Source: an uncultured Lachnospiraceae bacterium (GTDB lineage: Bacteria; Bacillota; Clostridia; Lachnospirales; Lachnospiraceae). From it: a stretch of DNA of 30,210 bases. The translations under genes and the position numbers were made by a program. The stretch spans positions 1-30,210 of the forward strand of contig CAZDAT010000001.1 of assembly GCA_964503695.1 (NCBI GenBank). The letters run 5' to 3'. Numbering within the stretch: the first letter of the stretch is position 1; every line of letters begins with the position of its first letter. Below are positions 12,601 through 28,094 of the stretch, piece after piece. The notes under the pieces are model-generated. The model ran no database searches. It had not been told where the DNA came from and saw only the letters and a program-made list of their open reading frames with translations.

Positions 12601-14009
12601 TATACCGGAATGCGGAAAATAAATGCCTGACTTAACAAGCCTTTCTTATTATACGCATTATATACACTTATGGCTTCCGTATAGGGTGCCTTAATATTCT
12701 GCATATACTGATGGGTATAATAAGAGGGACCGATTAAATCAAATTTCTGCAAATACAAGGTATCCTGTCCTACCTTAATATAATCTTTTCCTAAGAACTG
12801 TGCTCCTCCCAGCAAAGCATTATACCGGGTATTCCATCCTTTTTCTTTTGCATATTTTAATCCGCTTTCTATCACTTCCGTATTCGTTTTTCCGCTTGCC
12901 TGTATATTATAATAATTATAATATCCTTCATAGCCTGCATAAACGCCGGAAATCAGTGCACTGTCTCCTTTTACTCCCTGTTCCTGCCGTACTCTGGCCG
13001 CCTGCAGGATGGGGCTTACATTTGTACTTTTTGCCAGCTCTATAAATGTCTGGGCGTAGGTCTTTCCGTTTTCAACCGTCTGTCCCGCCATAAAAGTGCC
13101 CGAAACAATACTTTCTACCATTTCCAAAGTCTGGTAAGTGCTGTCATACCCTAACATTTCAAACTGGAAGATATTTTGTTCTGACAGCCAGTTTCTGGGG
13201 TCCATATAATATTTAATTGCCGCTTCTGACGCATAAGCCCATCCGGTGGAATATATTCCGTTTTTCCAGCATTCTGAAAGATTGGAATGAATTAAACTTT
13301 TATTTCCTTTCTGTGCTTTGACAGACTTACTCCAGTCAAGATTCGTGTTCATGGGTACAAAAATCCAGTTTGGATGTTTATTCTTTAATTCTTTTAAAGC
13401 ACTTTGATAAGAAGATGGAAATTTCTCAATATCGTTATACTTTCCATCCCTCTCATCCAGTCCGATTACACTAATGCTTCGGATATAGGTTGCCTGCCAA
13501 TCCATAAATTCCGAATCAACACAGGCAATATTTTCGCTGTTTATATATCCGGTCACTTCCTCGGTCTCATCGGTAAACTTTACCAGATACCAGATGCCAT
13601 ATTCTGAATCCTGTCCGGCACCAATAATCTGTACCGTATCCGCGGATTTTAATTCCTTGACAGGCTCACTTTTTTCTTCCGGTTCTGTCCGTAACATCAC
13701 CGTATCTGCCAGATAAACAACCGCAGGAAGCTCCCGTTCTTTTGCCAGTTGTTCCAGTGCGGTTACTGCTTCTTCAAAAGGATACAAATAAGTGTTTGCG
13801 GTAATTTCCTCTTCTGCATTTTCAGACTTTTCTTCTGCACCTGCATCATCCCCGGCTAACGTCTCTTCCTTTATTTCCTTATCCTTCTGTCTGCTTACGG
13901 AAGACGTTTTTTCTGCCGCATAGGTCGAAAAAGCCCCTAAATTTCCCTCTGCCACCATCACAGCGGTTAATAAAAAACACAGGAAGCCTTTTAAAATCTT
14001 CTTTTTCAT
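9654..14009 (-). CDS. 1451-aa multidomain cell-surface endo-beta-N-acetylglucosaminidase (GH73/LytD/Atl-like), C-terminally membrane-anchored
   Basis: Signal peptide; SH3b-like (VMLRTEP...WYLV...GYI); glucosaminidase domain ~12590-13421 (YYMDPRN, FQFE, RVRQEQG, YYNYYNI, GQDTLYLQKF, HQYMQNI); Ig-like Big_2 (SSNPEVATVDNNG); Cys/His repeats; N/G/S/T stalk; TM helix ~9937-10005; acidic tail. Confidence 0.85.
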   Translation of the reverse strand: MKKKILKGFLCFLLTAVMVAEGNLGAFSTYAAEKTSSVSRQKDKEIKEETLAGDDAGAEEKSENAEEEITANTYLYPFEEAVTALEQLAKERELPAVVYLADTVMLRTEPEEKSEPVKELKSADTVQIIGAGQDSEYGIWYLVKFTDETEEVTGYINSENIACVDSEFMDWQATYIRSISVIGLDERDGKYNDIEKFPSSYQSALKELKNKHPNWIFVPMNTNLDWSKSVKAQKGNKSLIHSNLSECWKNGIYSTGWAYASEAAIKYYMDPRNWLSEQNIFQFEMLGYDSTYQTLEMVESIVSGTFMAGQTVENGKTYAQTFIELAKSTNVSPILQAARVRQEQGVKGDSALISGVYAGYEGYYNYYNIQASGKTNTEVIESGLKYAKEKGWNTRYNALLGGAQFLGKDYIKVGQDTLYLQKFDLIGPSYYTHQYMQNIKAPYTEAISVYNAYNKKGLLSQAFIFRIPVYANMPAKKAAEPGKEDKITLTTTSIPNLQTDSEVTLTPLVNGKTAEGINWIFTSSNPEVATVDNNGLVKALKAGETTITCKDADDPDNPNVGSCKITVIKADIDEAKLEKPVLEEITYDSAMTLKDIALPAGYTWVNPDMVPTAAQTEYAVIYSPNEEKYNSITFNLSLIVKKKTLTANEYTIPKDLEGGAGNELSTVNLPEGFYWDNPQEKLPNTLGTYEYKASYNPDSTNYETVTDIKIPVKVICAAHNFGEWKVTEASCETDGSKVRSCSICGKEEKLILEKTGHSYESEVTKEATEEKEGIRTYTCKNCGDTYTEAIPKLQPVHVHKYTESIVQKASCTVDGQKLFECSCKDSYTEVIKASGHTMVNGRCQVCGYTETTEVPKNDNVNSNQGNGNTANSGSNSNAENSTGSNNGSNSNAGNSTGSNNGSNSNAGNNSTGNGNVNNAGNSGSGNTNASGSGNTSNTGSNSNAGNNAANGNTGTTTGGNKTENSNNTGNSNTSGSGNNNNSNTGTNSNTGSNSNVGNNETSGNTGTTTGGNKTENSNDTGNNNTSASGTDSNTGNTSGENKKPSSENNAGSTITNSNKESSESGNNNAVNAVTTEGNTTGNDNVAENKADTKEKETENEKLAENAETGTKKDNNTVTTGASSPANKTETELMSSLIENAKTETTQEGTEQTVSIQLSKNTEISQTIVEMAKKQGVNLEVELPNSLKWVIQTDSLSDIMPSQVNMNAQIVQDVVEAEAINAVVGENEYVELSLSHDGEFGFAATLVVPVEEKYIGKTANLFYYNEMTKALEFQMAALVDEEGNVALDFVHASDYAIVFADESMEEETAEAITENLSDENSFEETLEPEEKESASHLLIVCVIIMILAGAMAAAGYVIWSGKKEISDGKDFEEWLNEEKKEPVEKVTKKQQTKANILPPEQEKEPEEYLDDDVDDYREKDLPLTDTQSQTEPEEEYLDDDVDDYREKGPDLY
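9667..9803 (-). repeat. Duplicated motif in the cytoplasmic tail, EPEE(E)YLDDDVDDYREK x2
   Basis: Two copies at ~9667-9723 and ~9752-9803, near-identical protein with several synonymous differences. Confidence 0.9.
10940..11201 (-). repeat. Intragenic duplication, ~105 nt, 156-nt offset
   Basis: GNTGTTTGGNKTENSN occurs twice; TTTCCGGTA at 10945 and 11101; GTTACTTCCAGTATT at 11031 and 11187. Confidence 0.9.
11290..11400 (-). repeat. 42-nt (14-aa) tandem repeat, ~2.6 copies
   Basis: Units start at 11290, 11332 and 11374 and encode SNSNA(G/E)NSTGSNNG. Confidence 0.9.
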
Positions 14010-15106: not shown

Positions 15107-16606
15107 CTACAATTCCTTCACTCCAACTTCCAGATTTATCTCAAACATCCTGCTCCATGGCATGGTAACTTTTTTTATCCAAATCCTGTCTGCAATGGAA
15201 GAAAGATTTTCTTTTATAAATTGATTCAACTCTCCGGCTACCATCTGTGCCACACTTCCCGATGGTTCTTTTACATCAAAATAATTCATGGAAGCCGGAA
15301 GTTTTTCTGACACGTCTTTACGTACAACGGCACAATAACCTACATCTTCCACATATCTTTCTGCCAGAAACTTCAAATTTTTCTCTTTCCTGCCAAAAAG
15401 ATAACTGTTTATCCCTTCCGCAATTGCCGTGCCAAGGGTATTTGCAGATGTATTCCATCCTGCGTAACCATCCACCGCAAATAATAAATGATTATTATTT
15501 AAGATTTTAATAATCCCTAAATCACCGCCATTTGCATAAGCATTATCAGCAATTGTTACAATCATCTTCTGCTTTATACAGTATTTCAAAAGACTTGTCA
15601 TATCTGCAAGATTTCTCTCCACACAATATTCCAGCTTTTCCGAAGGCTGCGTCATTGCCTCTTCCATGGCATCCGCAGGTGCGGTCAAAAATAACACAAT
15701 ATCTGCATTTTCATAGCTTTCAGTCAGTAAGCCGCCGGCGGATAAAATATGATATTTCACTGTCGTGGAAAGAGTACATCCTTCATACAATGGAATCATG
15801 TTTTTTGACATTTCCGATACATATTTTACATAAAACTTCGGTCTTTTACCTGCCAGATAATTTAGCATTCTTGATAACAGGGTAAGTTCTACTTCATCTG
15901 CCCCCGGATACATTAACACCTTATCTTCCATATTATATTCGTTTATTTTTTCACGAATCACTTTCTGGTCCAATGCCGCATAACCATATTTTGACGAATC
16001 ATCCTGGGGAATCACCAGAGCATCTATCAGACCTTCCTTTGCAAGCTGAATGGTTTCCACATTCATATAACGGTTGATTTCTCTTCTTGAAATATAATCA
16101 TCCAGATATTCCGGTTTTACTTTTTCCATTGCTTTTTTCACAGGAACATCCCCTTCAATTCCAAGCCTGCTCAAATGAACCGCAACTCCTAATTCATGAA
16201 TTTCTTTTCCACAGATTCCATAATAATCCGGTTCTTCATCATCACTGGAATATTCCGGACATCTCATAATTACATGAAACGCATAGATAACAAGATGCTT
16301 ATTTTTTTCCCTGATTTCCCTCAATAACTGAATCTTTTGTAATAAGGTCTCTTTCGACAGATGATGAAGCCTTGAGGGAACAAGCCCCCCATATAAAAGC
16401 ATATCCATGGAAATTACCAGACCATCTGCATCCACACAGGCATCCCGCAGAAAATCCGCAATTTCATCATAAGAAGCCGGTGTTTTTTTGTTACCCAGTT
16501 TTTCCGGTCTTACAATATTTAAATCATCATGGCAAAATAATTTTTTAGGAAATTCATAATTACAGGGTCTCTCATCCAATGGTAATAATACAATTTTTTT
16601 CTTCAA
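15107..16606 (-). CDS. DUF4127 family protein
   Basis: KIVLLPLDERPCN, SMDMLLYGGLVPSR, DDSSKYG, YPGADE, GWNTSANTLG. Start revised to TTG 16606 (AGAGGA RBS, 4 nt after the upstream stop). Confidence 0.85.
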   Translation of the reverse strand: MKKKIVLLPLDERPCNYEFPKKLFCHDDLNIVRPEKLGNKKTPASYDEIADFLRDACVDADGLVISMDMLLYGGLVPSRLHHLSKETLLQKIQLLREIREKNKHLVIYAFHVIMRCPEYSSDDEEPDYYGICGKEIHELGVAVHLSRLGIEGDVPVKKAMEKVKPEYLDDYISRREINRYMNVETIQLAKEGLIDALVIPQDDSSKYGYAALDQKVIREKINEYNMEDKVLMYPGADEVELTLLSRMLNYLAGKRPKFYVKYVSEMSKNMIPLYEGCTLSTTVKYHILSAGGLLTESYENADIVLFLTAPADAMEEAMTQPSEKLEYCVERNLADMTSLLKYCIKQKMIVTIADNAYANGGDLGIIKILNNNHLLFAVDGYAGWNTSANTLGTAIAEGINSYLFGRKEKNLKFLAERYVEDVGYCAVVRKDVSEKLPASMNYFDVKEPSGSVAQMVAGELNQFIKENLSSIADRIWIKKVTMPWSRMFEINLEVGVKEL

Positions 16607-16610
16607 TGCT

Positions 16611-18761
16611 TTATCCTCTTTTTTCCTTCCAATCTTTATAAGCTGCAAGATATGTTCGTTTTGCTTCTAATCCAAACTGACCATAAAAGTCCTTCAAAAT
16701 TGTCCAGTCAACATTCACACGCACAGCACCATTTTTTTTCAACTGCCGAAGCGACTGATTCAACAGATAATCACCCACATGGCCGCCCCTTATCTTTTTT
16801 GCTATTCCTATGGGTCCTAAACCTCCATTACCATTCGCATCTACAGAAATCATGCAATAGCCTGCAATTTCTGTCTTATCTTTTTTCCATAAAATCACAA
16901 TATTTTCTGAATTATCTATCTCCCGGATTTTTTCCTTCGCTTCGTATTCCCATCTGCCCGGAAATTCTTCCTTCAAAAACCTGAGAAGCTTCTCTTTGTC
17001 CTTTTTATAAGTATCAGTTACATAATACTCTTCAAATGGATTTAAGTCAAAATTATCAATAGCTTCATTTCCTGTAAGTTCTGCCTCTAAATCATAATGC
17101 GGTTCGAAATTTAATTTAAATCCGCATTCCCCAAAAAATCTTTCTTTATTTTTATCAGGCTCCGGAATCCCCGAGAAAAAATTATGAAAATCCTGCCCTG
17201 CATAAATCTTTTTAATTCCACGTTTTTTTAAAGACTGGCAGGTATGATTTAAAAGCATTCTTCCATAGCCTTTTTTCTGCTCTTTTTGGTCAATCGCCAA
17301 AATACTAATCCATGCCGTATCAAGGTATAACTGTTCATTATGTGAAATCTTGACCCCGATAAATCCCAGTATCTCCTTTGTCTGTTCATCTACTATTTTT
17401 CGACTCTCCACACTGCAAAAATCTGCATCTTCAAAAAGATTTTTATAAATACGTTCTTTTGTTACCGTATAACTTTTATCAAACACACCTGCACATATAT
17501 CCGCAATTTTATCAATATCCTTCTTTTCCAACGGCTCGAGACTAACTTTTTTCATAAATTTCCACCAGTCATATTTATGAATATAAGATAAATCAAATAT
17601 CATACAGCCTCCGGTAGTCTGAAAGCAGACAGACATTGCTTCCTGTAATCTTTCCGGACACTCCCTATACTGTTCAATAAAAAGGCTTCCCGTCATTCCT
17701 TTTTTATTACAGGTTATCTTAGAGGCCATTTCGTAAGCTCCTTCCACAGTATACCAGGGTGCCGGAAGGTCTTTTTCTTCGGCTTCTGTAATCCAGACAT
17801 CACTGTAATAAAATCCTGACAATAACCTGTCCGGTATATCCCCATAGGCTGTTTCTTTCAGCTTTTTGGCATCACACCAGAAAAATTCATGACTCTGGTA
17901 TTTACTTCCTGCCCAGTTTGCACCGACCAAATGATACAGCGGGTACCATGAACCGGTATAATTACAAAATTCCACATCCGGGAAATCTGTTTTTAACATC
18001 CTGCTTACTTCTTCCACAAAGCTTTTGATAATTTTTGCCCGGTATTCGAAAAAGCTTCCATAGTATTTTCCCGGTTCTTCCTTAACTCCTTTACCGGTCT
18101 CTTTCAGCCGGTATATATCCTCAGGCCAGTTTTCATCATAAATATTTGTATACTTTTCCCAGTCTTTTCTTGTGTATTCACTAAAATCCGTTGATAATCC
18201 GACATATCTTACCCTGTCAAGTACAATGCCGTCTGGATGATAATTTTCACAAAATTCCCCGAGAAGGTTTAATTCATACTGACGAACCTCCTCTTTTCCG
18301 GGATTTACAAAAATCTCACCAAAATCATCTATAGAGCCTGCCGTCTTAAGTCCGAAGCTTTCCGTACTTTTTCGAATTACTGCGTTTCCATTTTTATCAA
18401 GTCCATAAACCTCACATTCCCATCCTGGTGTAAATCCTTTCATGAAAGGATGTTTCTTTTTTTTATTTCCTTCTGTAAAAACATCAAACGCAGCATAACA
18501 TTTCATTCCCAGTGACCGGATAATCCCAAAACACTGTTTTACATAATCTGTTTCCGGCTTAAAATCAGCATCATAGAAAGAATAATGCTTCGCAAAGCTA
18601 CTTTTATATATGACAAAACCGCTGGTATCTTTTACACTTAAGATAATACCTGTCATTCCTGCTTCTTTGCATTTTTCCATTGAATCCCGAAATGCTTTTT
18701 CATCCAGAATTATTTTTTTATTTGCCGAAATCTCAACCCATACTTCATAAATCTGTTCCAT
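16611..18761 (-). CDS. Fusion of a glycoside hydrolase-like TIM barrel (GHL10/DUF187-like) with tandem GNAT acetyltransferase domains
   Basis: N-terminal ~400 aa: LSVKDTSG, FVNPGKEEV, HPDGIVLDRVRY. C-terminal ~310 aa: EQKKGYGRMLL, GQDFHNFFSGIP, EFPGRW, GGLGPIGIAKKIRGGHVG, DWTILKDFYGQFG. One uninterrupted frame, no signal peptide. Confidence 0.8.
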   Translation of the reverse strand: MEQIYEVWVEISANKKIILDEKAFRDSMEKCKEAGMTGIILSVKDTSGFVIYKSSFAKHYSFYDADFKPETDYVKQCFGIIRSLGMKCYAAFDVFTEGNKKKKHPFMKGFTPGWECEVYGLDKNGNAVIRKSTESFGLKTAGSIDDFGEIFVNPGKEEVRQYELNLLGEFCENYHPDGIVLDRVRYVGLSTDFSEYTRKDWEKYTNIYDENWPEDIYRLKETGKGVKEEPGKYYGSFFEYRAKIIKSFVEEVSRMLKTDFPDVEFCNYTGSWYPLYHLVGANWAGSKYQSHEFFWCDAKKLKETAYGDIPDRLLSGFYYSDVWITEAEEKDLPAPWYTVEGAYEMASKITCNKKGMTGSLFIEQYRECPERLQEAMSVCFQTTGGCMIFDLSYIHKYDWWKFMKKVSLEPLEKKDIDKIADICAGVFDKSYTVTKERIYKNLFEDADFCSVESRKIVDEQTKEILGFIGVKISHNEQLYLDTAWISILAIDQKEQKKGYGRMLLNHTCQSLKKRGIKKIYAGQDFHNFFSGIPEPDKNKERFFGECGFKLNFEPHYDLEAELTGNEAIDNFDLNPFEEYYVTDTYKKDKEKLLRFLKEEFPGRWEYEAKEKIREIDNSENIVILWKKDKTEIAGYCMISVDANGNGGLGPIGIAKKIRGGHVGDYLLNQSLRQLKKNGAVRVNVDWTILKDFYGQFGLEAKRTYLAAYKDWKEKRG

Positions 18762-18765
18762 ATGT

Positions 18766-19605
18766 CTACCCTTTTACAGCACCACTTACTGCTTCTATAT
18801 AATTTCTTTGGAAAACCATAAATACCAGCAATACCGGAACGATGGAAATAATCGTACCTGCTGCCACATAACCGAATTTATAACTAAAGGAACCATTCAA
18901 ATACTGTAAAGCCGTAGCCAGCGGATATTTTTCCGGATCCTGCAGCACGATAATAGGCCACAAAAATGCATTCCAGTTTGCAATAAAATCAAATATCACA
19001 ATTGTTGAAATACTTGGAAGAATCCCCGGAAGCATTACATGTCTCCAGATTTTTAACTCCCCTGCCCCGTCAAGTTTTGCAGCCTCGATTAATTCCTTTG
19101 GTATTCCAAGATAAGCCTGCCGCAATAAAATAATACTAAATGTTTTCACCGAAGACGGAAGAATCACTCCTGCCATGGTATTTAACAAATGTAATTTTGA
19201 AATTGTAAGATAGTTAATAATCATTCCTGCTGCTGCCGGAATAATCATGGTTCCTATTAAAATGGTAAATATCACATTTTTCCCTTTAAATTCCATGGTA
19301 GCCAGAGGATAGGCACATAAGGAAGAAAAGATAATATCAATTATAATTCCGCCAAATGTAATAATAACCGTATTTCCTATATACTTAGGGATATTCATAT
19401 ATTCGACAACGCCTGTATAATTGGCAATCGAAAAATCACTTAATTTAAAATCCAGACTATAAATATTAGCACCCGTTCTGAAGGAAGATAACAAAAGCCA
19501 GATAAAAGGACCTGCACAAATAAGTGCAATAAGAATCAATAATAAATATGTAAAAATATATTCGATTACTTTTTTCTTCTTTTTCTTTGTCATTGTTTTA
19601 TTCAT
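18766..19605 (-). CDS. Carbohydrate ABC transporter permease (CUT1, MalG-like)
   Basis: Six TM segments; EAA loop IPKELIEAAKLDGAG; WNAFLWP. Confidence 0.95.
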   Translation of the reverse strand: MNKTMTKKKKKKVIEYIFTYLLLILIALICAGPFIWLLLSSFRTGANIYSLDFKLSDFSIANYTGVVEYMNIPKYIGNTVIITFGGIIIDIIFSSLCAYPLATMEFKGKNVIFTILIGTMIIPAAAGMIINYLTISKLHLLNTMAGVILPSSVKTFSIILLRQAYLGIPKELIEAAKLDGAGELKIWRHVMLPGILPSISTIVIFDFIANWNAFLWPIIVLQDPEKYPLATALQYLNGSFSYKFGYVAAGTIISIVPVLLVFMVFQRNYIEAVSGAVKG

Positions 19606-20494
19606 TATTTGTCATTCCTCCTTTCTTGCCATAAACAAACACTACAATACTAAGCAATGTAGTAACCGCAGCCTGTACCGCTCCAATGGCCGCTGCATAT
19701 CCGAACTGAAAATCCTGAAATGCCTTTGTGTAAGAATAATAATTAATTACCATTGTTGCATCGTTTGGTCCGCCCTTTGTCAGTACAAATACCACATCAA
19801 ACACTCCGATTGCGGAAATCACGGAATTTAAAGAGCAAAACCAGATATAGGGCTTTAACATCGGCAATTTAATTCTTGTAAATACTTTAACGGCATTTGC
19901 CCCATCAATGGTTGCCGCTTCACAAAGCTCTTTCGGAATCCCCTGTAAGCCTGCCAGATACATCATCATATAATATCCCAGTCCCTGCCAGACAGTAATA
20001 AACATCAGACAAAGCATGGCAGTTTCTTTATCGCTTAAAAATCCCAGCGGCATGGATATCAGTCCCCATTCTTTTAATGCCGTATTTATCAGACCATTTG
20101 AATTAAAAATGAATCCCCAGATAATGGAAACTGCAACCATGGAAGTAACAACCGGTATATAAAACAGGGTACGGAAAAATCCGATTCCTGGTATTTTCTT
20201 ATTTACTAAAACTGCCAGAAGAATAGATAATATCTGAATCACCGGAACAACAATTACAAATATGACTGAATTTTTTATTGAAATCAGAAACACTCTGTCA
20301 TTAAATGCTTTTACAAAGTTACGAAAACCAACAAATTTTGTCTCCCCAAGTACAGAATAATCATAAAACATCAGTATCAGACTTCCAACAATAGGTATAA
20401 TTGTAAATAACAAAATTATAAAAAGTGCCGGAGCCATAAAACCATATGCTTTTATGGTCTGTCTTTTTTTCATTTTTGAAATCTTTTCTCCCAT
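19598..20494 (-). CDS. Carbohydrate ABC transporter permease (CUT1, MalF-like)
   Basis: YLAGLQGIPKELCEAATIDGA; TKGGP; 8-nt overlap with the next permease. Confidence 0.95.
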   Translation of the reverse strand: MGEKISKMKKRQTIKAYGFMAPALFIILLFTIIPIVGSLILMFYDYSVLGETKFVGFRNFVKAFNDRVFLISIKNSVIFVIVVPVIQILSILLAVLVNKKIPGIGFFRTLFYIPVVTSMVAVSIIWGFIFNSNGLINTALKEWGLISMPLGFLSDKETAMLCLMFITVWQGLGYYMMMYLAGLQGIPKELCEAATIDGANAVKVFTRIKLPMLKPYIWFCSLNSVISAIGVFDVVFVLTKGGPNDATMVINYYSYTKAFQDFQFGYAAAIGAVQAAVTTLLSIVVFVYGKKGGMTNNE

Positions 20495-20508
20495 AGTATC
20501 CTCCTGTA

Positions 20509-20545
20509 TTAAACTGTCCCAGAAAAAACTTCCGGGACAGTTTAA
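20509..20545. other. Perfect 12-bp intergenic hairpin downstream of the binding-protein gene
   Basis: TTAAACTGTCCC-N13-GGGACAGTTTAA; likely mRNA stabiliser or partial terminator. Confidence 0.7.
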
Positions 20546-20548
20546 CTA

Positions 20549-21856
20549 TTAATTAATTTCTGCAAGAATTGCATTTACATCCGCTTCTGCCTGGGCTAAA
20601 GATGCTTTAATGTCCTCCCCATTTGTAATAGCTGCTTCATATGCTTTATCCACTGCTGTCTGAATATTTGTCTGATCCGCGATTCCTAAAGAGAAATCCT
20701 TTGAAGTTTTACTTGCTTTTGCAGACATTGCACTTGCCTGACCTTCCAAGGTTTCTGTATCAGAAGTAAAATATTCATCTTCACTGGCTGCCTTTGTGGA
20801 TGGGAAGATGGAAACTTCCTTACAAAATGCCAACTGGTTTGCATCATTTGTTACATAATGGGCAAAGTTAATGGCAGCTTCATGATTTTTACTTGCTTTT
20901 GGAACTACAAGGTTCATTAACGGGTTTCTGGACAATCCATTTTTTCCTGTTAAAGGTGTAGATATACCAATGTTTTCATAAATATCGGGTGCTTCATCTT
21001 TGATTCTGGATAAAGAAGAACCTGAGGAGCTTATGATTCCCAACTGACCGGATTCAAATAATTTTAACATTTCATCCCATTTTCCCCAGTTCGTTTTTAA
21101 AATAACACCTTTATCTGTGCATTCTTTGTATTTTGCCAGTAAATCTGCTGTTTCTTCGGTATTAAATGCAGCCGCTGTCTTATCTTCTGTCAATACATCA
21201 ATATTTTCTTCAAATAAAATGTTGAAAAATTCATCCGGCATAAATAAATATGCTCCTGTTTTATTATAAAATTCTTCAGCCATTTCCAGTGCTTCATCAA
21301 AAGTAGCCGGAACTTCCATTCCTGCTTTTTCAAATAAAGCTTCATTATAGAACATGATATCCGGTGATGCATACCATGGGAAAGCATACACGGAATCCCC
21401 GATTTGTGCAGATTCCCACAAATCTTCAATATAAATGGATTTCTGTTCTTCTGTAGCTTCTTCATTTAAATCCACTAATGCTCCCTGTCCTGCAAGTGTT
21501 AATGCAAACTGGGTATTTAAGTTTACAACATCCGGTGCTGTTCCCCCGGCAACTGATGTGACTAATTTTGACTGGATATCTGCATAAGGAACATCTGTCC
21601 AGTTAATTTTTACACCCGGATTTTGTGCTTCATAATTTGCAATCATTTCATTGAAAAAGTCCCCAAATGCTGCTTTCAGGTCAATGGTCCAAAACTCTAC
21701 CGTAACCTCTTGTCCGCTAACCGCTTCCGAATCGGTATTTACTCCGTTATCTGCCGATTCCACTTCCCCATTTCCTGCATCATTACCGCCACATCCTATC
21801 AGCATTGCTGCTGCCATGGAAATGCATAATAACACACTTAACATTTTCTTTCTCAT
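20549..21856 (-). CDS. Sugar ABC transporter substrate-binding lipoprotein
   Basis: MRKKMLSVLLCISMAAAMLIGC lipobox; AGGTAPDVV; YAFPWY; GGAGG-type RBS. Confidence 0.95.
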   Translation of the reverse strand: MRKKMLSVLLCISMAAAMLIGCGGNDAGNGEVESADNGVNTDSEAVSGQEVTVEFWTIDLKAAFGDFFNEMIANYEAQNPGVKINWTDVPYADIQSKLVTSVAGGTAPDVVNLNTQFALTLAGQGALVDLNEEATEEQKSIYIEDLWESAQIGDSVYAFPWYASPDIMFYNEALFEKAGMEVPATFDEALEMAEEFYNKTGAYLFMPDEFFNILFEENIDVLTEDKTAAAFNTEETADLLAKYKECTDKGVILKTNWGKWDEMLKLFESGQLGIISSSGSSLSRIKDEAPDIYENIGISTPLTGKNGLSRNPLMNLVVPKASKNHEAAINFAHYVTNDANQLAFCKEVSIFPSTKAASEDEYFTSDTETLEGQASAMSAKASKTSKDFSLGIADQTNIQTAVDKAYEAAITNGEDIKASLAQAEADVNAILAEIN

Positions 21857-21921: not shown

Positions 21922-23808
21922 TCAGCCGATAACCGCAGGTGTTGCAATATCTGACCACAAATTATAATTCAGCTCTTCAATCTGGTTCTTTTCAAAATAA
22001 CCAAATGATTGATATTCTTCCTCTAATTCCTCAATCACCGGTATCCTGCCTTCCACAAACTCTTCCAGCTGTTTTGCAGTATCCGACAGTCGCCGTTCCA
22101 GACCTCCTATCCGAAGGGTCTGTACTTCAAACCCAAATGCTTTATTTTCCAGTCTCCACTGTCTTTGAAAGGCTTCATAAAAGGCGTTCAAATCTCTTCT
22201 AAGTACCGGAATTTCTTCTTTTGCAATACGCGAAAGCTCTTCTTTATCCCCTTTCTCATATGCCTCACGTATTCTGATTCCCAAATCCGCTTTCTGTTTT
22301 AATACGATACACAGCTTATGCATGGTTTCAAAAATATAAGAAAACCTTCCCTGTCCGGAAATCTTTTCCATCATTTTTTCTGCCTCTGCAAACTTTTTTG
22401 CCGTATCTTTTTTTACCACAGAATCAAATGTTCCAATCAGCGGGTCATTATAAAGCAGATATTTGCTACAATTATTATGAATTTTATCATTTTCCGAATA
22501 TGGATTTACCAAATCTATCCTGCAAAATTCCTCAAATCCATAACCTGTCAGCTTTTCAAATGCCAGTTCCTCCATACGGCTTTCATATGCCAGCTTTGCA
22601 TCCTTAAAAATTGTCGGAAGCACCGAAAAACTGCTTGTTTCTGCTCCATTATCTCCCCAGCAGGTAATGGTATAAGAATCAATACCATGTTTTTTGCAGG
22701 CTGCAATGGATGCTTTTCCTATCTGTATGCTGTATCCGTTATGTGGTACAAAACCTGTCCATTTCCAGGCTCCTGTTGCAAAACCTATGTCATTACTTAT
22801 TTTCTTTTGTTTTACAATATTTTCACTGTAGTGTTCTTCACTGGTAGAGTAATAGTCCCAGTAAACAGGCTGTAAATCTTTTGGAATTACAAAATCCAAA
22901 TCATTGTTATCCAGCATATGTACAAACATATCGCTCCACATTTGTGGTCTCAGATTGTATTTTCGGCATATTTTTAAAACACATTCCAGATGTTTTGTCA
23001 TAATCCTGCTTTTTTTATGGAATCCATTTTTCGTAAGATATTTTCCGGAGCCTAAAAGCTCTGCCTCATCCATCCCTATATTAATCCGGTCGGTAGAAAA
23101 ACATTCCGAAACTTTTTTAATCAGATGTTCTAAAAACTGCTCTGTTCGTTCTTCGCCCACAAGCAGAATATCTTTTGCATCAATGATTTCGCTATAAGTT
23201 TCATAACGTGTAATCTGATTTAAATGGGCAAGTGTCTGTATGTAGGGTCTTAGTTCCATATCAAATATCTTCGCATATGCATCTAACGTTTTGATTTCTT
23301 TTTGTGTCAGCCTTCCCCGCATATACCCAAAATAAGGCTCTTCTTCCACTGCAAAAGTATCTTCCATGTAAAGCCCTACATAATGAAATCCCATGCACGC
23401 AGCATAACAAATCATCTGCTTAATTTTTTCCGGCTTCATAACTGCATTTCTTGATAAATCCAGCATGATTCCAAAATCACAAAATATACATTTTTCAGAA
23501 ACTTCCGTTTCTATTTCTTTGCTGTTTCCTGATAAAAACAGCAGTGCCCGACACATATCCAGGATTTTGCCGTATTCTACAACCAAAGCTTCCCTGTGCT
23601 TTTTAATCCGATAACCTGATTCTGCCGTATTTTTTAAGATGACTTTCTGAATCCTTCCTGTTTTCCGGCTTTCTTCCAATGAATTTAATGCCATCTTTTC
23701 CCATTTTTTATCTTCGTTTTGCCATACGTTTAAAATATCCGTATATTTTTTTAATTCTTCAATTACTCTTTCTTCTTTTTTACAAGCTTCCTCAATCGTA
23801 AAAAGCAT
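21922..23808 (-). CDS. GH20 beta-N-acetylhexosaminidase (cytoplasmic, GH20C/HexD-like)
   Basis: MLDLSRN, LYMEDT, PYFGYMRGR, IQTLAHL, catalytic GMDE pair, WSDMF, YWDY, WGDNG; no signal peptide. Confidence 0.92.
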   Translation of the reverse strand: MLFTIEEACKKEERVIEELKKYTDILNVWQNEDKKWEKMALNSLEESRKTGRIQKVILKNTAESGYRIKKHREALVVEYGKILDMCRALLFLSGNSKEIETEVSEKCIFCDFGIMLDLSRNAVMKPEKIKQMICYAACMGFHYVGLYMEDTFAVEEEPYFGYMRGRLTQKEIKTLDAYAKIFDMELRPYIQTLAHLNQITRYETYSEIIDAKDILLVGEERTEQFLEHLIKKVSECFSTDRINIGMDEAELLGSGKYLTKNGFHKKSRIMTKHLECVLKICRKYNLRPQMWSDMFVHMLDNNDLDFVIPKDLQPVYWDYYSTSEEHYSENIVKQKKISNDIGFATGAWKWTGFVPHNGYSIQIGKASIAACKKHGIDSYTITCWGDNGAETSSFSVLPTIFKDAKLAYESRMEELAFEKLTGYGFEEFCRIDLVNPYSENDKIHNNCSKYLLYNDPLIGTFDSVVKKDTAKKFAEAEKMMEKISGQGRFSYIFETMHKLCIVLKQKADLGIRIREAYEKGDKEELSRIAKEEIPVLRRDLNAFYEAFQRQWRLENKAFGFEVQTLRIGGLERRLSDTAKQLEEFVEGRIPVIEELEEEYQSFGYFEKNQIEELNYNLWSDIATPAVIG

Positions 23809-24081: not shown

Positions 24082-24951
24082 CTAATATGGCATACCTGTT
24101 TCATTTGCAGATGCTACCTCTTCTCCACGAAGAGCTGCCAAAGTTTCTTTATATTTTTTCTCATTATGATAGACATCATTTGCAAAATAATAGGAATATA
24201 AGACATCTATAATAATCAGTATGGGAATCTGTGGTGAAATTTTAGTTCCGGTTTCCAAATTTTTAATATATGCTGTCTTCACCACTTCGTCGCATAATTC
24301 TAAAACATCCATGTTCTCACCGGAAGTAATGTAAATCACCTTTGCTCCTTTTTTCTTGGCAATGCGGATACTGTTATTTATTTCTTTGGTTTTTCCGCTA
24401 ATCGAAAATGCTACAATTACAGAATTTTTTCCTGCAAGGGCTGCACTCATTTGTATCAGATGTACATCTGTTACCGCTTCCACTAAAAGTCCCATGCACA
24501 TAAACCGGAAACAAAATTCCCTGGCAGCAAAGCCTGAGCTTCCAACTCCATAGCATAAAGTTTTTTCTGCCTGCATAAGTATATCCACCACTCTCTGGAT
24601 TTGTTTATCTTTCAAAATCTGAAAGCTTTCCGCCAAAAGCTCTGAATAACTCTGACATACTTTTTGGGTAAGAATGCTGATATCCTTCTTCTGATTTTCT
24701 TTTGGCATTTCACGCTCTAAATCTTTTTCATAAGAAAAAATAAATTCACGATATCCCTTATATCCGCATTTTTTGGAAAATCTCGATAATGCAGCCTCTG
24801 ATACATATAATCGTTTGGAAATATTTTTGGAAGAAAAATCCATTTTTTCTGTATTACTTAGGAAAAAAGAAGCAATACTTCTTTCCACCGGTGTCATTTC
24901 GTTATAAAAACCCGACATATTCTGTTTCGTTTCATTCTGGTAATAGTCCAT
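24082..24951 (-). CDS. MurR/RpiR family transcriptional regulator (HTH + SIS)
   Basis: VSEAALSRFSKKCGYKGY (HTH); YGVGSSG and SISGKTKE (SIS). Start revised to ATG 24951. Confidence 0.93.
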   Translation of the reverse strand: MDYYQNETKQNMSGFYNEMTPVERSIASFFLSNTEKMDFSSKNISKRLYVSEAALSRFSKKCGYKGYREFIFSYEKDLEREMPKENQKKDISILTQKVCQSYSELLAESFQILKDKQIQRVVDILMQAEKTLCYGVGSSGFAAREFCFRFMCMGLLVEAVTDVHLIQMSAALAGKNSVIVAFSISGKTKEINNSIRIAKKKGAKVIYITSGENMDVLELCDEVVKTAYIKNLETGTKISPQIPILIIIDVLYSYYFANDVYHNEKKYKETLAALRGEEVASANETGMPY

Positions 24952-24958
24952 AATCTTC

Positions 24959-25972
24959 TCACTCTTCTTTCCAATCCATAATATCTGCGACCTCACGTAC
25001 AAGAATCTGTGCAATCTTTTTATGTGTCGTAAAAGACGGATGACCTCCGGTTCCCACCCCGTCTTCTTTTTCCATTAACGGCAATTCCACAAAAGAACAC
25101 CTTATTTTATTTTTCTGACATATCTCTGCCATATTTTTAACAGCTTTTGTTAAGGTAGCTTCCATTAAACCGTATAGGATTAAAATATAGGATTTCGGAT
25201 ATTTTTCCGCAATTTTATGAACAAATTCCATGTATTTTCCTGCAAAAGCTTCTTCTTTATTCTTGTCTTTTCTCGTATAACTGGCATCATTTGTTCCAAG
25301 ATTCATGAAAATAATATCCGGTTCATACTCGTTGTCCATGCTTTGTTCTAATACTTCCGGCATCAAAATGTCCGTTAAGGGTTTCTCCTCCTCAGGTGCA
25401 ATATAACGCGATATAATTCCGCCTCCGCTAAAGCAGGCAAACCACGCCTGTGCTCCAAAAGCTTCTGCTGTCAGATACGAATATGTTTTTGTAACATTCT
25501 CTGTGGCAGTCGTAAATATGAAATCCTCTGCCTTTCCCTCCACCCCATATCCGGCTGTCAGAGAATCTCCAATAAAGAGCATTTTGCGTTTTGAATTTTC
25601 TTTTTCTTTTGCAGGTGACATTTTTCCATCTGCATTCAATTCCTTTATTTTTAATTTTCCATACTGTAACTCCGTTAATTTCATAGCCCTGACTGTCACG
25701 TTTTCTTTTTGTCTGCTTTGAAACAATGTATAAACATGGATTCCATTTTCTATCTTAAAAATTTGTTCCGGTATTTTTTCTTCATTTATAAAAACACCCA
25801 GATAAGCTTCCAAATCCTTTTCTGCCTCTCCTTCTATCCTGGCAGTTACCCTGGTAAATTCTCCGCCAAATTCCAGAAATGAGCCAGAGGTTATAAGCTC
25901 TGCTTCACTGTTTATTTCCTTTATTTTTCCAAATTTTTCGATATTTTCATCGTTTATTGTATATCTGTACAT
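24959..25972 (-). CDS. SGNH/GDSL esterase, CE2-like
   Basis: FIGDSLTAGYG, SGGG, NLGTND, GGHP (His with no Asp three residues before it, as in CE2); N-terminal beta domain. Start revised to ATG 25972 (GGGAG RBS). Confidence 0.82.
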   Translation of the reverse strand: MYRYTINDENIEKFGKIKEINSEAELITSGSFLEFGGEFTRVTARIEGEAEKDLEAYLGVFINEEKIPEQIFKIENGIHVYTLFQSRQKENVTVRAMKLTELQYGKLKIKELNADGKMSPAKEKENSKRKMLFIGDSLTAGYGVEGKAEDFIFTTATENVTKTYSYLTAEAFGAQAWFACFSGGGIISRYIAPEEEKPLTDILMPEVLEQSMDNEYEPDIIFMNLGTNDASYTRKDKNKEEAFAGKYMEFVHKIAEKYPKSYILILYGLMEATLTKAVKNMAEICQKNKIRCSFVELPLMEKEDGVGTGGHPSFTTHKKIAQILVREVADIMDWKEE

Positions 25973-25989
25973 ATTATTCTCCCGCTTTA

Positions 25990-26820
25990 TCAAATCTCAA
26001 TTTCCATCCCATCATAAGAAATCATAATTTTGTCATTTTTCATATATTCTACAGCATACGCATAGCCTGCATGACCATTATGCGAAAAATGATTTGCCAC
26101 AAATATGGTATTTTCATCTGCTATATTTTTCTCTAACATTTTTTCCTTAAGCTTTAGGTTCTTTTCAAAATTCATATGCCCGGTATACTGCATTTTTTCA
26201 ACTCCTGAAGTGCAATCCATCGATACCAGTTGAAAATGCATCTGATTTTTTTCCAGATAATCCCAGATTTCTTCTGTAAAAAAATCAGTATCATGAGCAT
26301 AAAGAATTGTCTTGTTTTCTTTTTCTATACTGTAAAAGAGCGGATTTTTGGTTCCATGTACCGCCGGAAATGCCGTAACCTTATACTTTCCAAGTGTTAC
26401 AGGATGATAAGGCTCTATCGTATTAATCTGTACCTCCTTATTATCTCCAATGCTGTTTTCTCCCAGTTCCATTACCATTTTTTTCACATCTTCACTGCCA
26501 TATACATAAAGCGGCTCTGTTCCTTCTTTTAATACTGCATATCCGGCAGTTCTATAGATAAACTGGTCCGGCAAAAGGTGGTCTTCATGTATATGTGTAA
26601 TCAGACAATACTTTAAATCTGTAATGTCCAGCTGATAGGTCAGAGTATGAAAATAAGTATCCGGTCCGAAATCTATCATAATCTCATTATCTATCATTGC
26701 CTGACACCTTGTCCGTATCTCTTTCTTTCCATGTATTCTTGCAAACCTGCAAGTATCACAATGACAAAATAGTGCCGGAATCCCTTCTGCGGCTGCAGTT
26801 CCCAAATATTTAATTTTCAC
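25990..26820 (-). CDS. Metallo-beta-lactamase-fold hydrolase, PhnP-like phosphodiesterase
   Basis: LGTAAAEGIPALFCHCDTC (CxCxxC), THIHEDH (HxHxDH), AVHG, NHFSH. GTG start with GGAGGAG RBS. Confidence 0.85.
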   Translation of the reverse strand: MKIKYLGTAAAEGIPALFCHCDTCRFARIHGKKEIRTRCQAMIDNEIMIDFGPDTYFHTLTYQLDITDLKYCLITHIHEDHLLPDQFIYRTAGYAVLKEGTEPLYVYGSEDVKKMVMELGENSIGDNKEVQINTIEPYHPVTLGKYKVTAFPAVHGTKNPLFYSIEKENKTILYAHDTDFFTEEIWDYLEKNQMHFQLVSMDCTSGVEKMQYTGHMNFEKNLKLKEKMLEKNIADENTIFVANHFSHNGHAGYAYAVEYMKNDKIMISYDGMEIEI

Positions 26821-28036: not shown

Positions 28037-28094
28037 ATTTATCTCACATTTTCTTTCGTAGCTTTTTACATGATTTAGTATCATGCAGGGTTTG

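What the first reader, a model, noticed from the sequence alone, without database searches (positions are those of the whole stretch)
16611..18761. Glycoside-hydrolase-like barrel fused to a GlmA-like tandem GNAT acetyltransferase
Seen: one frame joins a GHL10/DUF187-like domain (~17560-18761) to two GNAT folds (~16611-17545). Known: tandem-GNAT glucosamine/glucosaminide N-acetyltransferases exist (Clostridium acetobutylicum GlmA), and similar domains are fused to some GH3 N-acetylglucosaminidases. Motifs here (FFSGIP, FPGRW, GPIGI, DWT.L.DFYG.FG) fit that family as I recall it. Inference: acetylating terminal GlcN makes the oligomer cleavable by GH20, while the barrel cuts a different linkage. 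I do not know this fusion from the literature.
Basis: partly seen in the sequence, partly recalled or inferred. Interest (0 to 1): 0.8.

Follow-up and report, generated by a model that had tools for sequence, protein, structure and literature searches.

The report
Sugar-cutting barrel fused to amino-sugar acetyltransferase
One gut-bacterial gene joins an unstudied sugar-cleaving-type barrel to an enzyme that re-attaches acetyl groups to glucosamine; the fusion is real and recurs in many genomes, I found no paper on it, and it offers a testable way into an uncharacterised pathway for recycling amino sugars.

Summary
Window 16611-18761 (minus strand) is one intact 716-aa ORF. Residues 1-405 form a single (β/α)8 barrel, covered by the Pfam GHL10 and DUF4985 hits together; its closest solved structure is C. 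difficile Cwp19 (Z 32.6). Residues 406-716 are a tandem GNAT. A profile of that half matches C. acetobutylicum GlmA end to end (E 1e-55) and the RmNag transferase region (4e-33); the next acetyltransferase scores only 3e-7. GlmA's probed Asp and Tyr and the sugar-pocket Trp/Asp-Trp are invariant.

It is not an assembly artefact. Contigs from four other gut metagenomes bridge the junction, and 16 species-level genomes, including isolates, carry the fusion. 14 others encode the two halves as separate genes in the same operon. A tree indicates one fusion event, followed by later fission or loss.

The gene sits in a conserved cassette: RpiR, GH20C, ABC importer, the fusion and DUF4127, elsewhere also NanE, ROK, NagA/NagB.

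A glycosidase fused to a GlmA-type transferase is known (fungal GH3 RmNag), but not with this barrel. The scan noted the wider DUF4127/NanE cassette before on other DNA, but not this fusion. The substrate remains unknown.

The parts
16611..18761 (-). Whole fusion gene: 716 aa (P0001) plus the stop codon at 16611-16613
   Evidence: The start lies 4 nt after the permease stop, and the stop lies 4 nt before the DUF4127 TTG start.
17547..18761 (-). Residues 1-405: one (β/α)8 barrel, a divergent GHL10 type. No signal peptide; β1 begins at residue 4.
   Evidence: The model range 2-408 superposes on Cwp19 5OQ2 with Z 32.6 and rmsd 2.4 Å over 313 residues.
17964..18746 (-). Pfam GHL10 (PF02638) match, residues 6-266
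17547..17894 (-). Pfam DUF4985 (PF16373) match, residues 290-405. This is the C-terminal strands of the same barrel, not a separate domain.
17082..17546 (-). Residues 406-~560: first GNAT fold of the GlmA-like tandem. It carries a canonical Q-x-x-G-x-G acetyl-CoA motif (Q495..G498..G500).
16614..17081 (-). Residues ~561-716: second GNAT fold, presumed catalytic. It holds W604, GPIGI 649-653, R658..G663, D685-W686-T687 and Y693.
   Evidence: residue roles are taken from PMC4680927 and from the GlmA mutant entries 5KGA and 5KGH
15107..16606 (-). DUF4127 gene (499 aa from TTG 16606), translationally coupled downstream partner. It is fused to this protein in P0012 and to NanE in other genomes.
18766..21856 (-). 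CUT1-type ABC importer: substrate-binding protein 20549-21856 and permeases 19598-20494 and 18766-19605
21922..23808 (-). GH20C-type β-N-acetylhexosaminidase
   Evidence: 2EPK at E 4e-124; S. pneumoniae GH20C 5A69 at 3e-118
24082..25014 (-). RpiR-family regulator (HTH_6 + SIS) at the head of the cassette
   Evidence: conserved at this position

Best explanation
This is a cytoplasmic two-enzyme protein of an amino-sugar oligosaccharide salvage operon. A sugar fragment containing hexosamines is imported by the adjacent ABC transporter. The N-terminal barrel is a divergent member of the GHL10 fold; its solved relatives cut peptidoglycan or partly de-N-acetylated poly-GlcNAc, and here I infer that it hydrolyses one glycosidic bond of the imported fragment. 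The C-terminal GlmA-type tandem GNAT uses acetyl-CoA to N-acetylate a free 2-amino group. [quoted passage not shown] Downstream steps that require the N-acetyl group can then proceed. The two steps are consecutive. My odds are about 55% for acetylate-then-cleave by the barrel itself, as in the fungal GH3-GlmA enzyme RmNag and in lysosomal HGSNAT followed by NAGLU, and about 45% for cleave-then-acetylate. The products pass through DUF4127, a ROK kinase and NanE (ManNAc-6-P to GlcNAc-6-P), then NagA/NagB. The most likely source of substrate is partly de-N-acetylated bacterial cell-wall glycan (about 55%). Shown here: the domain identities, conserved catalytic and pocket residues, the reality of the fusion, and the conserved gene partnership. 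Inferred: both activities, their order, and the substrate.
For: GNAT half: a profile of this half matches GlmA over its full length at E 1.1e-55 and the RmNag transferase region at 3.8e-33, while the next PDB hit scores 2.6e-7. The structure match to GlmA is Z 30 over 295 of 317 residues at 27% identity. GlmA D287 and Y297, the residues mutated in 5KGA and 5KGH, correspond to D685 and Y693, which are invariant in 54 fusion homologs. RmNag pocket residues W735 and D834-W835 correspond to W604 and D685-W686 (PMC4680927). Barrel: Cwp19 is the top structural match at Z 32.6, followed by PgaB-C/GH153 at Z 27.8. D182, R185, D192, D311, E340, D390 and a Tyr/Trp-rich set stay invariant across 68 barrels down to 28% identity. 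Coupling: 16 fused loci, 6 adjacent-split loci and 8 split loci with one gene between, all in the same cassette. A triple fusion with DUF4127 exists, as do DUF4127-NanE fusions. All fused barrels fall in one clade with 100/100 support. The coding sequences are separated by 4 nt on each side. Precedent: RmNag cleaves (GlcN)2 only when acetyl-CoA is present (PMC4680927), and HGSNAT must acetylate terminal GlcN before glycosidases can act (PMC11199644 abstract). Cytoplasmic location: there is no hydrophobic N-terminus, and β1 starts at residue 4.
Against: No activity has been measured for any DUF4985-type barrel. Cwp19's proposed key Asp196 is an invariant Arg here, so the catalytic apparatus is unknown and the barrel might not be a hydrolase. 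The invariant R183, R185, K44 and R241 suggest an anionic substrate group that a plain GlcN oligomer lacks. NanE was not found in the window's own genome, but that assembly is only 67% complete. Barrel-only cassettes exist (L007, L026, L042), so the transferase is accessory. The order of the two reactions cannot be told from sequence. The interface test on a split pair gave no answer.
Confidence: 0.62

Rival explanations
1. The GNAT half acetylates terminal GlcN so that the neighbouring GH20C, which needs the 2-acetamido group, can remove it. The barrel independently cuts a different linkage, and the fusion reflects only co-expression.
For: GH20C is encoded in the same operon here and in about 15 related cassettes. 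GH20 enzymes use substrate-assisted catalysis (established knowledge). In Thermoanaerobacterium a GH84 replaces GH20C. In RmNag the two active sites are separate, and the product diffuses between them (PMC4680927).
Against: At least nine GNAT-bearing cassettes have no GH20C or GH84 within the fetched flanks of up to 10 kb, and two cassettes have GH20C but no GNAT. The GNAT gene is always fused to, adjacent to, or one gene from the barrel; it is next to GH20C only in L034 and L052, where it also follows the barrel.
Confidence: 0.22
2. The barrel is not a hydrolase. It is either a carbohydrate-binding scaffold that presents the amino-sugar substrate to the transferase, or an enzyme of another class such as a lyase or epimerase acting on an acidic sugar.
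For: Cwp19's Asp196 is replaced by an invariant Arg. The clade keeps a conserved basic cluster of R183, R185, K44 and R241. Cwp19 itself is reported to be a lytic transglycosylase rather than a hydrolase (title of PMC6016235). R185-Y/F186 line up weakly with the carboxylate-binding Arg202-Phe203 of the GH156 sialidase (at E 0.055; PMC6811678).
Against: Several acidic residues at strand ends are invariant to 28% identity (E/D10, D182, D390, plus E340 and D311), which is typical of a live active site. Stand-alone barrels occur without any GNAT. GH156 is structurally no closer (Z 22) than generic clan relatives.
Confidence: 0.12
3. The GNAT half acetylates something other than an amino sugar, such as a protein, an antibiotic or a polyamine, and the resemblance to GlmA is only at the fold level.
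For: Generic GNAT models such as RimI, AAC(6') and ArsN give weak hits, all far below their cut-offs.
Against: The full-length profile match to the two experimentally characterised glucosamine N-acetyltransferases is at least 26 orders of magnitude better than to any other solved GNAT. The catalytic and sugar-pocket residues are conserved. The gene context is amino-sugar catabolism throughout.
Confidence: 0.03
4. The fusion is an assembly or frameshift artefact of this metagenome-assembled genome.
For: The genome is a 67%-complete MAG in 210 contigs. Three related species have the two halves as overlapping separate ORFs.
Against: Contigs from four other gut-metagenome runs, 95-97% identical, cross the junction with no gaps (records 4, 12, 17, 18). 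About 60 protein clusters and 16 species genomes carry the same fused ORF, including complete or isolate genomes of Anaerocolumna, Caproicibacterium and Allofournierella.
Confidence: 0.01

Closest known systems
GlmA, glucosamine/glucosaminide N-acetyltransferase of Clostridium acetobutylicum (PDB 5KF1 and related entries)
   Same: Tandem-GNAT fold of about 310 residues. The profile match covers the full length at E 1e-55, and the structure match is Z 30 at 27% identity. It shares the motifs FF(S/P)GIP, F(P/S)GRW, GGLGPIGI, DWT and FYG.F, including the Asp and Tyr probed by the deposited mutants.
   Different: GlmA is a free-standing 328-aa protein. Here the module is the C-terminal half of a 716-aa protein, and it lacks GlmA's ~15-residue insert before GGLGPIGI. 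The acceptor specificity is untested.
RmNag, the GH3 β-N-acetylglucosaminidase of Rhizomucor miehei with a C-terminal GlmA-type transferase region (PDB 4ZM6; PMC4680927)
   Same: It has the same design logic and the same domain order: a glycosidase at the N-terminus and a tandem GNAT at the C-terminus. The transferase makes GlcN-terminated substrates cleavable. The profile match to its transferase region is E 4e-33.
   Different: The partner there is a GH3 enzyme of known activity in a fungus. Here the partner is an uncharacterised GHL10/DUF4985 barrel in anaerobic Firmicutes, with no GH3 signal, inside an operon with DUF4127 and NanE.
Cwp19 of C. difficile (GHL10; PDB 5OQ2/5OQ3). E. coli DigH/YddW belongs to the same Pfam family (from my own knowledge).
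   Same: It is the closest solved fold, at Z 32.6 and rmsd 2.4 Å over 313 residues. It shares the β4 motif context DG(I/V)..D...Y.G, the first Asp (D195 = D182), the β6 Tyr, and a Phe-x pair on β8.
   Different: Cwp19 is secreted and wall-anchored and acts on peptidoglycan. This barrel is cytoplasmic, only 18% identical, scores just above the Pfam cut-off, has Arg in place of Asp196, and carries a cassette-specific D145-D146 pair in an inserted loop.
Lysosomal heparan sulfate step: HGSNAT (acetyl-CoA:α-glucosaminide N-acetyltransferase) followed by α-N-acetylglucosaminidase
   Same: The functional logic is the same: a terminal glucosamine must be N-acetylated before a glycosidase can remove it (abstracts listed).
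   Different: There is no homology. HGSNAT is a multi-pass membrane enzyme of another fold, and the two activities are on separate proteins.
PgaB C-terminal domain (GH153; PDB 4P7L/4P7N)
   Same: It is the second-closest fold (Z about 27.8), and one of its structures was solved with bound glucosamine (the title of 4P7N).
   Different: There is no detectable sequence similarity. PgaB is periplasmic, fused to a deacetylase rather than an acetyltransferase, and its catalytic residues were not compared here.

Membership tests
GlmA-type glucosamine/glucosaminide N-acetyltransferase | Two GNAT folds in tandem in about 310 residues | tested here: met
   Pfam finds two Acetyltransf_1 stretches. The model range 406-713 superposes on 5KF2 at Z 30.0 with 295 of 317 residues aligned.
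GlmA-type glucosamine/glucosaminide N-acetyltransferase | Full-length sequence similarity to GlmA and the RmNag transferase region that clearly exceeds similarity to other GNATs | tested here: met
   Profile A4 scores 5KF1 at E 1.1e-55, 4ZM6 at 3.8e-33, and the next hit (Naa30) at 2.6e-7.
GlmA-type glucosamine/glucosaminide N-acetyltransferase | The active-site Asp and Tyr of the C-terminal GNAT (GlmA D287 and Y297) | tested here: met
   They align with D685 and Y693, both invariant in 54 fusion homologs and 17 fused or split modules.
GlmA-type glucosamine/glucosaminide N-acetyltransferase | The sugar pocket described for RmNag (Trp735, Asp834, Trp835, and the backbone of Cys799-Val800) | tested here: met
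   These align with W604, D685, W686 and P650-I651 (residue roles from PMC4680927). Thr738 aligns with the variable E607.
GlmA-type glucosamine/glucosaminide N-acetyltransferase | Acetyl-CoA-dependent N-acetylation of GlcN and GlcN-terminated oligomers | not testable with these tools
   This needs an enzyme assay.
GHL10 (PF02638; Cwp19, DigH/YddW) | Match to the family HMM above the gathering score | tested here: met
   30.5 bits for the whole protein and 33.8 bits for residues 1-290, against a cut-off of 27.9. The match is marginal and covers only profile positions 4-226 of 311.
GHL10 (PF02638; Cwp19, DigH/YddW) | A (β/α)8 barrel with Cwp19 as the nearest solved structure | tested here: met
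   Z 32.6 and rmsd 2.4 Å over 313 residues, well above PgaB-C at 27.8 and GH42/GH14/GH156 at 21-25.
GHL10 (PF02638; Cwp19, DigH/YddW) | The Asp195-Asp196 pair at the end of β4 that was proposed as catalytically important in Cwp19 (PMC5765458) | tested here: not met
   The profile alignment pairs Cwp19 FDDYFY with LDRVRY. D182 is kept, but Asp196 is R183, which is invariant in the 42 cassette-type barrels and present in 21 of 26 distant ones.
GHL10 (PF02638; Cwp19, DigH/YddW) | Cleavage of peptidoglycan glycan strands | not testable with these tools
   This needs an assay. No biochemical data exist for any DUF4985-type barrel.
RmNag-type bifunctional GH3-GlmA enzymes | An N-terminal GH3 β-N-acetylglucosaminidase domain | tested here: not met
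   There is no GH3 hit in Pfam or NCBIfam. The N-terminal half is a GHL10-type barrel.
GH156 inverting sialidases | The catalytic Asp14/His134 pair and the carboxylate triad Arg129/Arg202/Asn346 (PMC6811678) | tested here: inconclusive
   The only sequence link is a weak profile match (E 0.055) that puts R185-Y186 on Arg202-Phe203. An acidic residue (E/D10) sits at the end of β1. No equivalents of His134, Arg129 or Asn346 were identified. The structural Z of 22 is lower than for Cwp19 or PgaB.

The most novel reading that the evidence does not exclude
The fusion is an 'acetylate-then-cleave' machine in which the DUF4985-type barrel is a new kind of N-acetyl-dependent exo-glycosidase, a new activity or family branching from GHL10. 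It would act on an acidic amino-sugar unit of bacterial cell-wall polymers. Together with DUF4127, the PF12831 flavoenzyme and NanE, it would form an undescribed route that yields ManNAc-6-P without the sialic-acid lyase NanA.
Probability: 0.3. Interest if true: 0.8.

Novelty: new variant of a known kind. Interest (0 to 1): 0.6.

Why it matters
GHL10/DUF4985, DUF4127 and the PF12831 flavoenzyme are all uncharacterised, yet they recur together in gut and plant-fibre-degrading Clostridia. The fusion ties one of these unknowns to a module whose chemistry is known and easy to assay: acetyl-CoA-dependent N-acetylation of a free amino sugar. Finding which amino sugar or oligomer the GNAT half accepts would reveal the substrate of the barrel and of the whole cassette. 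It could also add a second, bacterial example of the 'acetylate so that it can be cleaved' logic known from RmNag and from lysosomal heparan sulfate breakdown. Finally, it bears on how gut anaerobes recycle de-N-acetylated cell-wall material.

Tried and rejected
1. Interface prediction for a naturally split barrel and GNAT2 pair (L034) gave no answer (score 0.00). It counts neither for nor against binding.

2. GH156 sialidase kinship was considered because of a weak profile hit and the nan-like gene context. The structural Z of 22 is below Cwp19 (32.6) and PgaB (27.8), and only one motif coincides, so I did not adopt it.

3. A canonical NanA elsewhere could explain the presence of NanE. TIGR00683 was not reached above its cut-off in any of five cassette genomes (best 209 bits against a cut-off of 382). 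That model's cut-off is strict, so this is weak evidence.

4. DUF4127 fold: the model is confident (pLDDT 94.6), but nothing convincing appears in the PDB by Foldseek (TM about 0.23) or by VIA-align (generic flavodoxin/SGNH-like and CheY/TIR-like halves at Z about 9).

5. The PF12831 flavoenzyme has no informative solved relative.

6. The nearest solved relative of the substrate-binding protein (6WPM) carries only the generic name 'Substrate-binding protein', so it says nothing about the ligand.

7. The Symbiobacterium 727-aa ORF carrying a GNAT2 module has no barrel in its N-terminal part; it may be an over-extended ORF.

8. Literature searches for DUF4127, DUF4985, N-acetylmannosaminidase, and GlmA with C. 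acetobutylicum found nothing relevant beyond the RmNag paper.

9. A sample of 300 other genomes from the window's own class found no other DUF4985. The cassette is rare among relatives, and this gave no further insight.

10. I could not measure the distance or orientation between the two active sites, because model coordinates are not exposed.
Full report
**1. The observation**

Window 16611-18761 on the minus strand is one uninterrupted ORF of 716 codons. Pfam places GHL10 (PF02638, the former DUF187) on residues 6-266. The score is 30.5 bits against a gathering score of 27.9, and 33.8 bits when the N-terminal half is scanned alone. DUF4985 (PF16373) covers residues 290-405 at 117.6 bits. Two GNAT folds lie at about 410-550 and 590-700.

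**2. Not an artefact**

Contigs from four other gut-metagenome runs carry 95-97% identical strain variants. They cross the junction with substitutions only and no gaps (records 4, 12, 17, 18). The same fused architecture occurs in about 60 protein clusters at 39-72% identity, some with thousands of member sequences. These include proteins from complete or isolate genomes of Caproicibacterium and Anaerocolumna, where they are annotated only as 'GNAT family N-acetyltransferase'; Allofournierella is added.

**3. The C-terminal half is a GlmA-type amino-sugar N-acetyltransferase**

- As a single sequence, the best PDB hit is C. acetobutylicum GlmA (5KF1, E 1.5e-17). The second is the GH3-acetyltransferase fusion RmNag (4ZM6, 6.6e-12). 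RimI-type enzymes score only 0.006.
- A profile of 17 fused and split modules (A4) matches GlmA end to end at E 1.1e-55 and the RmNag transferase region at 3.8e-33. The next solved GNAT scores 2.6e-7.
- The AlphaFold2 model (pLDDT 90.9) superposes on GlmA at Z 30 over 295 of 317 residues with 27% identity (Foldseek E 2e-22).
- The residues changed in the deposited GlmA mutants D287N (5KGA) and Y297F (5KGH) align with D685 and Y693, which are invariant in 54 fusion homologs.
- RmNag's sugar-pocket residues Trp735 and Asp834-Trp835 align with the invariant W604 and D685-W686 (PMC4680927).
Activity itself cannot be tested here.

**4. The N-terminal half is one barrel of a divergent GHL10 type**

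- The GHL10 and DUF4985 Pfam matches together form a single (β/α)8 barrel. Model residues 2-408 superpose on Cwp19 (5OQ2) at Z 32.6 and rmsd 2.4 Å over 313 residues. That is ahead of PgaB-C/GH153 (Z about 27.8), GH29/GH42 (24-25) and GH156/GH14/GH35 (about 21-22).
- At sequence level, a profile of 39 barrels finds only Cwp19 significantly (E 2.4e-8). It pairs Cwp19's FDDYFY with this family's LDRVRY. The first Asp is therefore kept (D182), but Asp196, which the Cwp19 authors proposed as the key residue (PMC5765458), is an Arg here.
- I aligned 68 barrels, 26 of them only 28-36% identical and from Bacteroidota, Ignavibacteriota, Elusimicrobiota and other phyla. The residues conserved throughout are E/D10, K44, D72, D182, R183 (63 of 68), R185, D192, R241, Y268, W272, Y273, Y276, N282, D311, Y318, W336, E340 and F389-D390. 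D45, H59, D93 and D145-D146 are specific to the cassette-type barrels.
- This pattern looks like a live, aromatic-rich sugar site with several candidate acids and a basic cluster that hints at an anionic group on the substrate. The catalytic mechanism is unknown.
- There is no signal peptide, and β1 starts at residue 4, so the protein is cytoplasmic. Cwp19, by contrast, is secreted.

**5. Gene context**

- In the window the gene lies in a tightly packed co-directional run: RpiR regulator, GH20C-type β-N-acetylhexosaminidase (E 4e-124 to 2EPK, 3e-118 to pneumococcal GH20C), substrate-binding protein, two permeases, the fusion, then DUF4127. The gaps on either side of the fusion gene are 4 nt.
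- The same order recurs around homologs down to 40% identity, usually with NanE directly after DUF4127 and with a ROK kinase, NagA/NagB and a CE2/SGNH esterase nearby.
- One protein (P0012, 1216 aa) fuses barrel, GNAT2 and DUF4127. DUF4127 is fused to NanE in several genomes.
- The pathway therefore normally ends in ManNAc-6-P to GlcNAc-6-P. No NanA lies in any fetched flank, and no clear NanA was found in five cassette genomes (weak evidence).
- In the exhaustive library the GlmA-like family has 253 representatives at E ≤ 1e-30. Among the best 150 only three are long. Two are barrel fusions. The third carries an SGNH esterase. A truncated fourth protein continues into a ROK kinase. The module thus fuses repeatedly with members of this cassette.

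**6. Fused against split**

- Among 63 species-level loci analysed with my own HMMs, 16 are fused: Roseburia MAGs at 66% identity, other Lachnospiraceae, Butyrivibrio, two Anaerocolumna, Lachnoclostridium, Caproicibacter and Allofournierella.
- Six loci have barrel and GNAT2 as adjacent genes. Eight have a PF12831 FAD oxidoreductase gene between them (Thermoanaerobacterium, Ruminiclostridium cellobioparum and others).
- A few loci have the barrel and DUF4127 but no GNAT2 nearby.
- In a maximum-likelihood tree of the barrels, all 20 fused rows lie in one 28-row clade with 100/100 support. That clade also contains three split forms whose ORFs overlap by 28 nt and five barrel-only forms. The basal Firmicute lineages are split.
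- With the distant phyla as outgroup, this fits one fusion event followed by at least three fissions or losses.
- The window's own class yielded no other DUF4985 among 300 sampled genomes, so the cassette is rare.

**7. Mechanism**

- What is shown: the two domain identities, conservation of the transferase's catalytic and pocket residues, a conserved candidate active site in the barrel, cytoplasmic location, and a tight and evolutionarily persistent partnership between barrel, GNAT2, DUF4127 and NanE behind an ABC importer.
- What is inferred: the barrel cleaves a glycosidic bond in an imported hexosamine oligosaccharide, and the GNAT half N-acetylates a free amino group, most likely GlcN. 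GlmA and RmNag accept both free GlcN and GlcN-terminated oligomers (PMC4680927).
- The GNAT module tracks the barrel and not GH20C (section 6), so I take the barrel's reaction to be the adjacent step.
- RmNag cannot cleave (GlcN)2 without acetyl-CoA, and HGSNAT must act before the glycosidases can. Both favour acetylate-then-cleave.
- The gene order barrel, (flavoenzyme), GNAT2, DUF4127, NanE, the GNAT2-ROK fusion, and the preference of known enzymes for free GlcN favour cleave-then-acetylate. I put the odds at about 55:45.
- For the substrate, cell-wall glycans carrying de-N-acetylated residues are the best guess. The supports are GHL10 relatives that act on peptidoglycan, GlmA's proposed role in wall recycling (from my own knowledge of Reith and Mayer 2011), a secreted-size canonical GHL10 protein in the Ruminiclostridium cassettes, and NanE pointing to ManNAc-containing wall polymers. 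This remains unproven.

**8. Comparison with known systems, and novelty**

A glycosidase fused to a GlmA-type transferase is known from fungal GH3 enzymes. This is a bacterial version with a different, uncharacterised barrel in an undescribed operon, so I class it as a new variant of a known kind. No paper in the searched library mentions DUF4985 or DUF4127. Earlier notes of this scan had already flagged the wider DUF4127/NanE/GHL10 cassette on other genomes as an undescribed amino-sugar salvage system. My independent results agree with them, but none of those notes dealt with this fusion.

Noticed in passing
window 15107-16606 (-): DUF4127 most likely starts at TTG 16606 (499 aa, MKKKIVLLPLDERPCN...), 4 nt after the fusion gene's stop, and not at 16648. 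Its AF2 model is very confident (pLDDT 94.6), but no solved structure matches beyond generic flavodoxin/SGNH-like and CheY/TIR-like halves. More than 2,300 homologs were found, most of them 54-80% identical.
   Followed up: partly
L003 10001-13651; L014, L016, L017: Two kinds of gene fusion link cassette members. One 1216-aa protein joins barrel, GNAT2 and DUF4127. Proteins of about 750 aa join DUF4127 to NanE.
   Followed up: partly
L006, L030, L032, L033, L035, L036, L038, L039, L041; L055-L070: In the basal split cassettes, a PF12831 FAD-dependent oxidoreductase (about 455-470 aa) sits between the barrel and GNAT2 genes. A 620-aa version lies near the distant barrels of Sphingobacterium. 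It has no informative solved relative, and its role is unknown.
   Followed up: partly
P0303 (794 aa); P0269 (355 aa, truncated): The GlmA-like tandem GNAT also occurs fused to an N-terminal SGNH/GDSL esterase. In a contig-end fragment it is followed by the start of a ROK kinase.
   Followed up: partly
L036 3345-6686 (also L030, L033, L035): A protein of about 1000-1100 aa with a canonical GHL10 domain (140 bits, residues 558-826) is encoded just upstream of the substrate-binding protein in the Ruminiclostridium-type cassettes. It may be the extracellular depolymerase. Its N-terminal 550 residues have no Pfam match.
   Followed up: no
L023, L025, L043 at 11194-11221: In three species the barrel ORF and the GNAT2 ORF overlap by 28 nt in different frames. 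These rows are nested in the fused clade, which looks like secondary fission of the fused gene.
   Followed up: partly
window 16601 / 18304 (joints in X3 and X4): One 8-kb contig in run X3, and a contig showing the same joint in X4, match the window only at 16550-16601 and 18304-18346, with 787 letters between instead of 1702. That length fits a related organism with a barrel-only gene directly followed by DUF4127. The matches are short (43-52 nt), so this is tentative.
   Followed up: no
window 24959-28084 (-): Upstream of the RpiR gene lie a CE2/SGNH esterase, an MBL-fold (Lactamase_B_2) protein and an MFS transporter, all co-directional and closely spaced. The esterase recurs in many related cassettes. 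The MBL protein was seen again in only three of the fetched loci (L034, L049, L052).
   Followed up: partly
whole genome G000: The window is an entire 30.2-kb contig of a MAG that is 67% complete and has 210 contigs. NanE was not found in that assembly. DUF4985 was found in none of 300 other genomes sampled from the same class. The nearest barrel relatives are Roseburia MAGs (69% identity).
   Followed up: partly
window 9654-14009 (-): A 1451-aa protein shows only weak SH3_3 and Ig-like hits in Pfam and is separated from the cassette by about 1.1 kb. I did not study it.
   Followed up: no
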